Shown here: in pieces, positions 34,051 to 45,119 of the stretch
Layout: each line of letters starts with the position of its first letter
How positions within the stretch are numbered: the first letter of the stretch is position 1
Origin: Chromera velia
Taxonomy: Eukaryota
Assembly (NCBI GenBank): GCA_018398765.1
Contig: JAHBMJ010000220.1
Coordinates: 1 to 53,519 of the forward strand
Reading direction: 5' to 3'
Length of the DNA: 53,519 nt
The notes under the pieces: generated by a model
The model's database searches: none
The model's input: only the letters and a program-made list of their open reading frames with translations
What the model was told of the DNA's origin: nothing
Program-made: the position numbers and the translations under genes

Positions 34051-35467
34051 TGGCGTCGGTCAAAGGCACAAACAGCTCGTGATTGTGACGATCTGCTGGG
34101 CTTATTAATAGTAGCATCTTCCGACGATCATGATCGAATACCGACCCGGGTCGATCTGCATGCATGCGCATTTTTTTAACGCGCGTTGTGCGCGCGGAGT
34201 CGCGCGGGCGCGCATTCCGCGCGGCTTAAACTTGAACTCATTCAAACTTCTTCGCGAAAATCCCGATCGCTCCACAGGGGGCGCCGCCGCCGCGCCGCCC
34301 GGTCATAGAATTTGGTGACTGAACAACGGTATCAGAAAAATGACCCACCTTCTAATTCATTCCGACCTGTTCAAACCCAGTCAGGACAATGCCTTACACT
34401 AACTTCTGGTCGAATTTTCTAAGCTTGCCATCGGCTGCCTCTCTGCTTAAGTGCTTTTGTTGAATTTGATTTTCAGCCTCTGTAGGTTTATTGTTTTAGC
34501 ACCGTCTCGTACCGTCTCGTTCTTTCAGACGGAGTGTTCTCTCTGATTTGCACCTCCTGCACTCCTCAGCATGGAAGATCAAGATCCAAAGCCACAATTC
34601 GTTGGCTACAGGGCGATAGACAAGGCGCAGACTGCGTATCTGGAGTCGGAAAAATAGCTGACAGCTGCACAGAGGCATGTACAGTTCTCTCGGTTTAACC
34701 AGTCTGCCCCCCTCACAAAATCGTTACAAACGGAATGCAATACAGAAGTGGGCATGCTAATGGACCTTATGAGACGACACACGTACGTACAGAAGGTTGA
34801 TTGGGTGCACGAGGTGGGAGAGAAACTGTTTTTCTTTTCTGGTCATCTTCATTTTGTATCCTTCCCCGTCTCCAGAGACTGTTATGTGAAAACAGGACCA
34901 TGTTGACTGTAACACTAATTCCGACTCCAAATATTTTTAATTTTTTTCAGTTAATTAAAGTAAAATCATAATAATTCCTGATGTTTAAACCATGTAAAAA
35001 CATTTGTAAACATCTTTTTAAATTATAACATGTGTGCTAAATCTATTTATATGTCCTCATTTTTTTTTTGTAGCAGCTAGTGTAGGGCGGTGTACTACTA
35101 CTAGTAGTAAGATCTTGTATGTTTGTACCAGTGTGTCTATACTAGGATCTAGACTAAGATTTAGTTACTCGATCACATATATATCATAATGTTTTTTAAA
35201 AATCTTTTTTCAAAAGCTTCAGAAGATCGACTCAAAATAATTTACGCGATCAGAGTTAGTAAGAAATTTTTTTCAAAATTTTTTTTTAGTTCCTACTTTT
35301 CCCTAAGGCTATATATCTATACTCCGGCTCCATTGTACTACATTGTACTCTATTGTGCTCTAACTCTGAGTCGATCATAGAAGCATGATAGTGCTGCAGG
35401 ACTGTTTTTTTGCATGATCCCGGAAATGCCATAGATGAGAAACTGCTCCTTATACGGCTGCGCGGAT

Positions 35468-35496
35468 ACACAGACGCGTACACATACACATACACA

Positions 35497-35574
<78 letters not shown>

Positions 35575-35577
35575 AAC

Positions 35578-42184: not shown

Positions 42185-42391
42185 TTGACTGGATCTTTTG
42201 TGACAGTGTTCTTATATCGCAAGCAAAAAAAAAAATGAAATTGAAAAAAACAAAAAAAAAGAAATAAAATTATTTGAACGATTTATTGATAGATATCAAA
42301 TTAAAAGTCTTTAAAAAAATTAAACTAGGTCTCACACTAAAAAATTCAAAAAAAAAAAAATCATATTAGTTTAGTTTAGTCATTCTAGTGG

Positions 42392-44563
42392 CTAGAATGA
42401 TTGATAGAAATAAATAATTTTTACGGAGAGGGATAAGAAGAAAAGATCCCACACCAGCGCGCACAGCATGCAGGAATTTCCCTTGTACTGTGCCCCATTC
42501 AGGCCCAGAATAAGCCTGCCAAACTTCAGGTCCCACGTAGCTCCAAAGCTGAGCCTCAGCTTGATGACTCGCTTCTTATCCGTCTCTGGATCTATCACAT
42601 GAACCTCGAAAGGCTCTACTACCATTACGGCGATTTCCAACAGCAGGTCTATAAAAAACTTTTTTATGTCATAATGGCTCTCTGGCTCCTGAATCAACCC
42701 CAACACAAAGAGACTAAAAGGACTCTCCCACAGCTCCTTTCCTAAGGTAGGGAAGCGCACAGCGAGCAACAGAAGATTCCTAAGGTGGCTCATCACCTGT
42801 CGAAAAAGAAGCTGTCCGTCGTCCACAAGCTGCGCAAACAGCGTGTAGACACGATCGGCATCTGGGGGGGGGAGATTGAAACTGTAAGTTTCAGAATCAA
42901 ACAGTTTTTGGATGAATGCTTTCATGGAGGTAACCTTTGATCCCGGCGTTGCCCCCACTGCATTTGGGAGGAGCTCCGGAAACTTTTCAAGAAGCTCTTT
43001 CCTCGCCTGAACCACGGCCTCCCACGAGGGGAGGACCCGAGGCTTCAGCAGTGTGACCCCCAGCTCGTTCGTTACTTTCTTCCATGTCCCGTCCCCCGCT
43101 TTTTCAACAACTTTGAACAGCTCTCTATATGCTGCCCTGCCCACCCACCTGCTTGAAACCCAAATCGCCATTTGCTCTTTTGACACCACCCCTTGCTCCT
43201 TAATCAATCGGACTAAGTCTCTCAAAACCTCCTTCGAAAGCCACGTGTCTTCACATAAGACTTTATTGAGGATTTCTCTTCTGAACTGATCAAGAGAGAC
43301 TGATTCTGCTGTTTTCAAAATCATCTTCAGCAAGTGAGGGACACAAGTCTGGCATCCTTCTGCGCATCCATAGTTCACTGCATGGATGCACAAATCCTTC
43401 AAGGCAACAATGCGCCTCCTCTAGCTTCTCTCAGACACAAGTATCCAACACTTTCTCCCTCTTGCAACAGACAATAATCGGAGTTTCGGAGCATCTTTCT
43501 CTTGTGCGGACTCAATGGCTTTGATTTTACGCCGACGCTCCTCTGCCTTCTCCCTCCAATTGTCACTATCGGAGTCCTCGTCCGAGCTACTCCCTTCAGA
43601 CGGGTCTGCTGGGGCACCAGGAGCCTGGAGCTGAATGAAATGCACTTCACTGACAATACTAGCGGCTGGCTGACTGTCTTGAGAAATGGGTTAACTTTCT
43701 CAAAAACTTGCCGCATCTCCCTCTTCTTGTGAAGGCTTCCACTCAATGTCCGATGGATTTTGTAAGTCCTTACTGTCCCATCCTCTTCTATGCCCACGCG
43801 CCGGGCCCTTCCCTAAGGCTTCATCTTCCTCAGACCCGGAGCCCCCTCCGTCGGCCCTGCGCTGCTGCAGTGGGTTGTAATAGTTAGGGACCATTGAGGG
43901 TTCTCTCACTTCTTCTTCTTCTTCGGGAATGAAAACGCGTGCACGTGGCTGTCGCTCAGGCAGCTGGTCGGGGATCGGATCAGGAAGCCCCCGACATCCT
44001 TTTCCTCTCCCAACACCTCTCCTTCTCCCTCTTCCCTCGAGCACAGAAGCACCACCTTGCGCCGGGGCTGCTATAGGATCGGCCGGAGGATGGTGCTGGA
44101 AAGACGCTCTCGCAAGAACACTCAGAGGCCGACCTTCTAGCCGACCTTCCTCATGCGGGGGTTCCGGGCCTCCAGAAGCACTGGAAGATGATGTCGCAGC
44201 AACATCCACAGCCCCAACTTCAGGGGCATCCCCCTGACAGGCAGGCAAAGTTAACGGAAGATCAAAATTGAAGTCCTTATCTGAAGGAATAGGGGGAGGA
44301 TATAACTGAGGATCGATAAACTTCTCTCGCATACACTCCCACAAAGACGGGCAGGCATCTCTCAAAGCATTTGCAGCGAGCTCAGTATCAGCTCTTGCCT
44401 TTGTGGTCAGCAGGTGATACACGAGAAACACTGTGAAGACTCTGTGCTGATAAAGTTTCGCTGTGTTTTTGCGGAAGGCTTGTGAGTCACCTCCACGACC
44501 CCGACAAAAACAACGCATTTCTGACATCAAAACGCCCAAACGAACATAGAAACCGCACTCCAC
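42392..44563 (-). pseudogene. RAG1/Transib/Chapaev-like DDE transposase, degenerate and C-terminally truncated
   Basis: Ordered motifs VLPSWEAVVQARKELL, LFAQLVDDG (first D), ESPFSLFVLGLIQEPESHYDI..EI, GATWDLKFGRLILGLNGAQYKGNSCMLC (second D plus CxxC) parallel RAG1 VKESCDG, PNSE..PLCLM..DESD and TGYDEKLVREVEGLEASGS.YICTLC. Upstream pieces join via a frameshift near 43800, a 44-nt intron (43631-43674) and a TAG at 43421. Confidence 0.75.
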
Positions 44564-45119
44564 TACTACAAAGATTGGCTATTGCAAGTGGCTTTCACTT
44601 CACTGAGCGACATTGGTGTTCTTTCATACCCATTCGGTCTCAAAACCGATGAGTAGAGGACTTTCTGGTTGGAGACAGTTGGAGACGGACTTTGACGCCC
44701 TGGATCTTGGAGGAGACGTCACTCCTGGCGTCCATACTCCGGCAAGTTTATAGGCCCGATGGGTCCTACAAATGGTGCGGAGCGCTATGAATTAGTCGGC
44801 CGGGGTGATGATCTCGCTCTGAGGCGCGCGACAAAATCTATGACCATGCGGCGCGGCCCCGCCGACCCCTGTGTCCTAGTTTTGGGCGTCTCGAGTTTCA
44901 GTATGATAGGAAGGCAGTATGGATTCAAAGGCTATGCACACGCATAGGAAATATTCTTTCATTGACAGTCACTAGATTGATTTGAACAGGTGGAAGCTGA
45001 TGACTCTTCCCTGGTTGGACAGACTCCTTCTATAAGTTGATGAATGGATGTGAGGTGATTCAGTTATATTGCCGTCTCCTCTAGTTGTATGGTAGGACAG
45101 CTAGTATCACATTTTTCTG

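What the first reader, a model, noticed from the sequence alone, without database searches (positions are those of the whole stretch)
34273..44873. CACAGGG-ended transposon with RAG1/Transib-like transposase, 2-bp TSD and tail-to-tail partner gene
Seen: 37-bp TIRs starting CACAGGG (6/7 match to the RSS heptamer CACAGTG), a TC duplication, a minus-strand transposase with RAG1-like motif order up to D..GL..CxxC, and a convergent plus-strand gene. Established: Transib/ProtoRAG make 5-bp TSDs, Chapaev 4-bp, EnSpm/Mirage 2-3 bp; ProtoRAG has convergent RAG1L/RAG2L. Inference: a possibly undescribed two-gene CMC lineage in a protist. Caveats: this copy is dead (stop, frameshift, no C-terminal zinc-His/catalytic Glu), no RSS nonamer is visible, and the partner shows no kelch/RAG2 features.
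Basis: partly seen in the sequence, partly recalled or inferred. Interest (0 to 1): 0.85.

Follow-up and report, generated by a model that had tools for sequence, protein, structure and literature searches.

The report
Decayed RAG1-like two-gene algal transposon
This is a broken copy of a jumping gene in the alga Chromera whose cutting enzyme is likely a distant relative of RAG1, the antibody-gene recombinase, and which faces a second, unidentified gene in the tail-to-tail layout of RAG transposons although that gene does not resemble RAG2.

Summary
The element is real. It has CACAGGGG ends (35/42 identical), and an empty-site paralogue at 45716 shows a 2-bp TC duplication. Half of the 10.6 kb is a nested 5,343-bp high-copy element that splits the partner gene. 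That gene really starts at 34571, so the layout is TIR, partner (+), transposase (-), TIR. The transposase has three nonsense codons, no frameshift in the aligned part, and is truncated at 42419. Longer relatives are named Chromera velia (94-99% identical). They continue past CxxC with a His and later RAG1-like motifs, but all end before any H-x3/4-H or catalytic Glu. ESM Atlas ranks a RAG1 cluster first (0.94; weak by its own calibration), and CACTA and DUF1280 clusters are also listed. HMMER found no homologue outside Chromera, and both AlphaFold models failed (pLDDT under 40). The partner has no homologue and no kelch or PHD features. Verdict: an undescribed two-gene variant of the CMCT clade (RAG1/Transib/Chapaev/EnSpm), probably nearest RAG1/Transib. 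It is not a RAGL. Branch placement, the partner's role and its presence in other full copies are unproven.

The parts
34271..34272 (.). left target-site duplication TC
   Evidence: the empty site has one TC
34273..34314 (+). left TIR, starts CACAGGGG, GC-rich, 35/42 identical to the right TIR
34352..34360 (+). distal 9-mer CTAATTCAT, 80 nt from the left end; likely a second transposase-binding site (inferred)
   Evidence: 11 of 5000 shuffles
34571..34883 (+). partner gene, 5' part (104 codons, one in-frame stop at codon 29)
   Evidence: in frame with 40231 onwards once the nested element and one TSD copy are left out; not in frame if both TSD copies are kept
34884..40226 (.). nested 5,343-bp high-copy element with ATGTGAAAAC inverted ends and a TGTT duplication (34880-34883, 40227-40230). 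It holds a CA microsatellite, a 284-bp inverted repeat and 4.7 copies of a 185-bp unit; no coding region was recognised
   Evidence: summed contig depth 6,450-9,430 in X1 over 39300-40183, against 40-138 over the two genes; varied loose ends behind 40226 (agreement 0.49-0.50)
40231..42184 (+). partner gene, 3' part: 230 codons, a frame slip at the GA run (40895-40925), then 429 codons including 8.7 copies of a 27-bp (9-aa) repeat; about 750 aa in all, no known homologue
42185..42418 (.). AT-rich (79%) spacer between the two 3' ends; the transposase deletion junction is at about 42419
42419..44332 (-). transposase remnant matching residues 1-638 of P0003 (94%), with candidate D505, E549, D601 and C621/C624; nonsense codons at 43702, 43693 and 43423; the open frame extends upstream to 44578
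44787..44795 (-). distal 9-mer CTAATTCAT, 79 nt from the right end
44832..44873 (-). right TIR
44874..44875 (.). right target-site duplication TC
45693..45733 (+). paralogous empty site (outside the element): 32/34 identical to the left flank, continuing into CTAGTTT like the right flank, with a single TC

Best explanation
This is a dead copy of a low-copy, two-gene DNA transposon in Chromera, whose transposase is likely a RAG1/Transib-type DDE enzyme and whose convergent second gene is likely an element-borne helper unrelated to RAG2. SHOWN: CAC-ended TIRs with a shared distal 9-mer; a 2-bp gain relative to an empty site; two convergent genes inside the TIRs; decay by C-to-T nonsense changes, deletion of the transposase 3' end and insertion of a 5.3-kb repeat into the partner. 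INFERRED: a transposase dimer would bind the CACAGGG ends and the distal 9-mer. It would excise the element using an RNase H-fold active site (D505, D601 and a Glu not seen in available sequences) and a zinc module (C621/C624 plus unseen histidines), probably by nick and hairpin as RAG and Transib do. It would then insert with a 2-nt stagger. The partner would assist end binding or regulation, as TnpA does for CACTA elements (recalled) or RAG2 for ProtoRAG; its function is untested.
For: TIR and TSD. The ESM Atlas top hit among 7.7 million clusters is a RAG1 cluster (0.94, 161 shared features), and 9 of the 10 best hits with a family share its family or clan. Spacing in P0003 follows mouse RAG1 as numbered in PMC4914335: D-D 96 against 108, D-to-CxxC 20 against 19, then a His as for H795. 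A post hoc motif pattern was met by 0 of 20,000 shuffles. Both genes exist in at least three variants. For the partner, three X1 contigs of depth 25.6, 32.4 and 30.4 overlap at 41941-42063. For the transposase, the variants are the window copy, P0003 and P0004. Summed depth is alike over both genes (X1: 52-132 and 64-138). P0001 comes from a transcriptome collection, and contigs of guessed-RNA runs cover both genes.
Against: Atlas recognition is 2120, under the 2300 mark, so the score is weak evidence on its own. 20 of the 30 hits are unnamed clusters, and CACTA (Transposase_21) and DUF1280 clusters score 0.92. There was no Pfam, PDB-sequence or HMMER homologue outside Chromera. P0001, P0003 and P0005 all end 237 aa after D601, with no His after H756 and no recognisable catalytic Glu. 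The CxxC-to-His gap is 132 aa against 65 in RAG1. No contig shows both genes together in a second copy, and the tool warns that summed depth is no copy number. The TSD rests on one insertion, and a 3-bp TCC reading fits if the left end is allowed to lack its terminal C.
Confidence: 0.6

Rival explanations
1. It is a CMCT element, but a divergent EnSpm/CACTA-, Chapaev- or ESTA-type one rather than a RAG1/Transib relative; the second gene is then an ordinary CACTA-style accessory gene.
For: CAC..GTG ends and C(2)C are shared across CMCT. The Atlas lists Transposase_21 and DUF1280 clusters at 0.92. A short TSD is typical of that side of the clade. The D-L-K-x5-L-G-x10-CxxC stretch recalls Chapaev3 (recalled, no call).
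Against: RAG1 clusters fill 5 of the 9 Atlas rows shown, including rank 1. There is no Pfam Transposase_21, Plavaka or DUF1280 hit. The TSD is not TWA, TA or 3-4 bp. Motifs resembling the RAG1/Transib NBD and DDBD (GRK..SERSQRRR, LPSWEAV) sit about 213 aa before D505 (resemblance recalled, positions).
Confidence: 0.2
2. The transposon is a single-gene element and the partner is a passenger: a captured host fragment or unrelated ORF that plays no part in transposition.
For: The partner has no homologue anywhere searched and is rich in low-complexity and tandem repeats. One other copy has a 957-bp deletion in it.
Against: It fills the whole space from 298 nt inside the left TIR to the spacer, has about the same number of variants as the transposase, and keeps a long frame of about 750 codons with two lesions.
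Confidence: 0.15
3. It is a true RAGL transposon whose RAG2L has diverged beyond recognition.
For: The layout is convergent and two-gene like ProtoRAG, the heptamer matches 6/7, and RAG1 is the top Atlas hit. A RAGL is known in another protist, Aureococcus.
Against: No kelch or PHD Pfam hit at E<=1. No hydrophobic-GG kelch motif and no CxxC in any of the three partner pieces. The TSD is 2 bp, not 5. RAG1L cores average 37% identity to each other, yet HMMER over 1.84 billion proteins found none.
Confidence: 0.04

Closest known systems
ProtoRAG / RAGL transposons (BbeRAGL, PflRAGL-A, TransibSU; AanRAGL in Aureococcus) (PMC10629977, PMC4411706, PMC9435367)
   Same: TIR-bounded two-gene element, convergent genes (as in BbeRAGL), CAC-starting heptamer-like end, bipartite end with a distal conserved element, RAG1-like motif order.
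   Different: The partner has no kelch propeller or PHD; the TSD is 2 bp, not 5; there is no A-rich nonamer and almost no spacer asymmetry (80 against 79 nt); no sequence similarity is detectable by HMMER.
Transib superfamily (HzTransib; Subgroup I/II of Tao et al. 2022; Nozomi/Oriex, bioRxiv 10.64898/2026.08.26.747230)
   Same: CAC ends, low copy number, D..D..CxxC..H order; a 2-bp TSD has a precedent in Oriex (TA).
   Different: It carries a second gene; the heptamer is CACAGGG (5/7 to CACAATG); the TSD is TC; the CxxC-to-His insert is very long.
Other CMCT lineages: Chapaev/Chapaev3, EnSpm/CACTA, ESTA, Plavaka, Lanisha, Mirage (PMC12730594, PMC4079192)
   Same: CA..TG termini, TSD within 2-5 bp, C(2)C motif; ESTA also has a 2-bp TSD and an HHpred match to RAG1.
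   Different: The TSD sequence or length differs from Chapaev (3-4 bp, TWA), fungal EnSpm (3 bp) and ESTA (TA). The termini differ from PlavakaA (TGT) and PlavakaB (CATCA). There is no Pfam hit to their domains.

Membership tests
CMCT clade | 5'-CA..TG-3' termini | tested here: met
   CACAGGGG at both ends; definition
CMCT clade | 2-5 bp TSD | tested here: met
   TC, one insertion against an empty paralogue
CMCT clade | C(2)C motif after the second D | tested here: met
   C621/C624, 20 aa after D601; P0004 has Y at the first Cys
CMCT clade | H(3-4)H motif and catalytic E | tested here: inconclusive
   All available ORFs end early. The only H-x4-H (650-655) lies before the candidate H756. P0001 equals P0003 over residues 587-838, so the shared stop may come from one copy
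CMCT clade | profile or structural homology to RAG1/CMCT transposases | tested here: inconclusive
   Atlas rank 1 is RAG1, with low recognition; HMMER found nothing; models were too poor
Transib (canonical) | 5-bp TSD | tested here: not met
   2 bp; the trait is reported as labile
Transib (canonical) | heptamer plus A-rich nonamer in the TIR | tested here: not met
   heptamer 5/7 to CACAATG and 6/7 to CACAGTG; best nonamer match 5-6/9 (definition)
Transib (canonical) | single transposase gene | tested here: not met
   second gene inside the TIRs (definition)
Transib (canonical) | phylogenetic placement with Transib transposases | not testable with these tools
   no reference transposase sequence could be obtained from a tool
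RAGL / ProtoRAG | two linked genes within TIRs, convergent in most members | tested here: met
RAGL / ProtoRAG | RAG2L with six kelch blades and PHD | tested here: not met
   no Pfam hit; no kelch-type GG motif or CxxC in the three pieces. No fold of the partner was obtained, so this rests on sequence alone
RAGL / ProtoRAG | 5-bp TSD | tested here: not met
   definition
Chapaev / Chapaev3 | 3-4 bp TSD (TWA in Chapaev3) | tested here: not met
   TC; a formal TCC reading is not TWA (definition)
Chapaev / Chapaev3 | C(2)C, LH, H(4)H motifs | tested here: inconclusive
   C(2)C present; VH instead of LH at 755-756; terminal H(4)H not in the available sequence
ESTA / PlavakaA / PlavakaB | TA TSD; TGT or CATCA termini | tested here: not met
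   TC TSD and CACAG termini (definitions)
EnSpm/CACTA and Mirage | Transposase_21 domain or tree placement | tested here: inconclusive
   no Pfam hit but an Atlas cluster at rank 24; Mirage's 2-bp TSD is recalled, not from a call

The most novel reading that the evidence does not exclude
This is an independent origin of the RAG design: a deep-branching RAG1/Transib-type transposase in an alveolate that recruited a non-RAG2 partner in the same tail-to-tail layout. The partner binds the enlarged insert between CxxC and the active-site His and shifts integration to a 2-bp stagger. It may belong to a wider unnamed class of convergent two-gene RAG1-fold elements in protists.
Probability: 0.15. Interest if true: 0.85.

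Novelty: new variant of a known kind. Interest (0 to 1): 0.55.

Why it matters
Current models have a Transib-like transposase acquiring RAG2L once, early in eukaryotes (PMC9435367, PMC10629977). A RAG1/Transib-type element with a different convergent partner would show that two-gene, tail-to-tail organisation can arise more than once, and it would provide a natural control for what RAG2 adds. It would also extend the clade to chromerid alveolates, the free-living relatives of apicomplexan parasites. The enzyme is invisible to HMMER across 1.84 billion proteins, so earlier sequence-based surveys would have missed it. The value is limited because all available copies are damaged, the branch is unplaced, and 2-bp TSDs are already known in the clade.

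Tried and rejected
No whole genome is held for this window, so other copies' TSDs could not be read.

Homologue searches for the transposase: longer proteins, none among 7,991 candidates; near length, only the Chromera proteins P0001 and P0002; 1.84 billion representatives, 2 hits, of which P0006 is a spurious Ig-repeat protein. Loci were not found in metagenome, viral or prokaryote contigs, and the TIR pattern gave 0 hits in metagenomes. PDB sequence searches were empty or noise.

Partner: no hit by word-indexed search (proteins of 235-751 aa only), Atlas (residues 60-275 of the last piece only), Pfam or PDB. The complex prediction of transposase with one partner segment gave 'no answer'.

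Other: no RNA holder is on record among the sequencing runs, so X3 and X4 are only guessed RNA. No Rfam match in 33000-47000.

Rejected readings: HPTESH (650-655) as the terminal H(4)H motif, because it precedes the His and G motifs that precede it in RAG1; a frameshift in the transposase core; chance as the source of the TIRs.
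Full report
1. The ends. The element runs from 34273 to 44873 and both ends read CACAGGGG. They are identical at 31 of the first 37 and 35 of the first 42 bases. The next best 42-mer in the window scores 25, and a TIR pattern with up to 3 mismatches occurs exactly twice, with 0 of 100 shuffles reaching 2. Beyond the core, both ends carry CTAATTCAT at offsets 80 and 79; 11 of 5000 shuffles gave such a shared 9-mer within 5 nt of offset. No RSS nonamer is present (best 6/9 and 5/9).

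2. The target duplication. The left flank recurs at 45693-45726 (32/34 identical) and runs straight into CTAGTTT, the sequence that follows the right end. Filled minus element equals empty plus two bases, TC. This is a length argument, not just a 2-letter match, but it rests on one insertion. A 3-bp TCC duplication fits only if the left end lacks its first C. I prefer 2 bp because CAC..GTG is invariant in Chapaev and positions 1-3 are conserved in all Transibs.

3. A nested element hides the true layout. Positions 34884-40226 (5,343 bp) have ATGTGAAAAC inverted ends and a TGTT duplication. In contigs of public runs, summed depth over its right part is 6,450-9,430 in X1, against 40-138 over the two genes. 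Contigs leave its end at 40226 with disagreeing letters (agreement 0.49-0.50), as expected for a mobile end. With it and one TGTT left out in a script, a frame starting at ATG 34571 runs 335 codons with one stop (codon 29). With both TGTT copies kept, it breaks. After a frame slip at the GA run near 40900, the 429-codon ORF continues to 42184. The element without the insert is 5,254 bp: TIR, partner (+, about 750 aa), AT-rich spacer, transposase (-), TIR.

4. The transposase. The minus frame is continuous from 44578 to 42392, with stops at 43702, 43693 and 43423. Against P0003 these replace R, Q and Q, consistent with C-to-T changes, and there is no indel over 638 codons. Relatives found are P0001 (MMETSP transcript, 502 aa), P0003 (Cvel_35180, 838 aa), P0002/P0004 (Cvel_2005) and P0005. 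The named ones are Chromera velia, which identifies the host as that species or a very close relative. They match the window to 42419 and then continue, so this copy lost at least 600 nt.

In P0003 the candidate residues are D505, E549, D601, C621/C624, H756 and G814. Mouse RAG1 has D600, D708, C727/C730, H937/H942 and E962 and H795. The spacings are D-D 96 against 108, D-C 20 against 19, and C-H 132 against 65. A motif pattern written after seeing the sequence was met by 0 of 20,000 shuffles; it is post hoc. Resemblances of GRK..SERSQRRR, LPSWEAV and LLGSEALR to RAG1/Transib motifs are recalled and come from no call.

Against this reading: P0001, P0003 and P0005 end at the same stop, 237 aa after D601, with no His after H756. 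P0001 and P0003 differ at 15 sites in residues 373-586 and at none in 587-838, so the shared end may reflect one damaged copy. That is not shown.

5. Family assignment. ESM Atlas put a RAG1 cluster first (0.94, 161 features), with RAG1 clusters in 5 of the 9 rows shown. 20 of the 30 hits were unnamed clusters (the two shown are mostly arthropod and cnidarian), and DUF1280 and Transposase_21 clusters scored 0.92. Recognition was 2120, below the tool's 2300 mark. It counts because the predicted family came first, but it does not separate RAG1/Transib from the rest of CMCT. HMMER found nothing outside Chromera. Both AlphaFold models were under pLDDT 40, and their fold searches are uninformative. 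No tree could be built.

6. The partner. It has no homologue in any search; each search covered only part of it. It has no kelch-type GG motif and no CxxC. Three X1 contigs with depths 25.6, 32.4 and 30.4 overlap at 41941-42063, so at least three variants exist, matching three transposase variants. Summed depth over the two genes is alike (the tool warns this is no copy number). No listed contig bridges both genes in another copy. Contigs of guessed-RNA runs cover parts of both genes. One X4 contig matches from 40227 and has 507 further bases on the side where the uninterrupted 5' part would lie, but its letters were not shown.

7. Mechanism. The best reading is a cut-and-paste transposon whose transposase binds the CAC ends and the distal 9-mer, cuts with a DDE centre and zinc module, and integrates with a 2-nt stagger. 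The stagger is read from the TSD. The catalytic assignments, the hairpin chemistry and any role of the partner are inferred.

8. Comparison. It works like a CMCT element and is laid out like ProtoRAG. It fails RAGL membership (no RAG2L, TSD not 5 bp) and canonical Transib, Chapaev3, ESTA and Plavaka membership on TSD, termini or gene number. TSD length is reported as labile within Transib, so that failure does not exclude Transib ancestry.

I found no description of this element in searches (listings only). 'Chromera' had 0 occurrences in the text-readable supplements of PMC9435367 and PMC12730594; figures there, bioRxiv supplements and Repbase could not be seen and may bear on novelty.

Papers seen: PMC9435367, whole text; PMC12730594, passages and section 3.1.6; PMC1131882, passages and one section; PMC4079192, passages and one section; bioRxiv 10.64898/2026.08.26.747230, abstract and one section; PMC10629977, PMC7204232, PMC4914335, PMC4411706 and 10.1101/2021.09.26.461848, passages only.

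Earlier unchecked notes of this scan report similar convergent two-gene RAG1-fold elements in other protists (8 of 21 shown). These are leads only. They lower the uniqueness of this case and hint at a wider class.

9. Verdict. It is a real feature and a new variant of a known kind. Interest 0.55.

Noticed in passing
window 34884-40226: Nested high-copy element with ATGTGAAAAC ends and a 4-bp TGTT duplication. It contains a 950-bp CA microsatellite, a 284-bp inverted repeat (37257-37883) and a 185-bp tandem array. Its superfamily is unknown, and its depth is about 100 times that of the host element.
   Followed up: partly
window 34239-34272 + 44876-44880 and 45693-45731: The target is itself a repeat end finishing in CTAG followed by T, in two copies, within sequence at depth 1,200-2,800 in X1. 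This recalls a Helitron 3' end (recalled, untested).
   Followed up: no
window 39300-45900: Differences among copies are 459 transitions to 54 transversions in X1. Of the 40 rows shown, I scored the 29 T>C and A>G rows and left out the other 11; 11 of the 29 are at CpG against about 17% background. This suggests cytosine-methylation decay of repeats in Chromera.
   Followed up: partly
window 46330-53519: Long degenerate satellite of about 48-49-bp units.
   Followed up: no
window about 2138-24000 (+): Intron-rich host gene for an RNA polymerase second-largest subunit (Pfam Rpb2_6 and Rpb2_7 hits in 2 of the 7 pieces scanned), with microsatellite-rich introns.
   Followed up: partly
window 615-1418 (-): Intronless ChrR cupin-like gene (PF12973, E 6e-28), a family best known from bacteria (recalled).
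   Followed up: no
window 25083-27758: Several 140-250-aa ORFs without Pfam hits; possibly remnants of another mobile element.
   Followed up: no
window 12478-13515: 54-bp tandem array.
   Followed up: no
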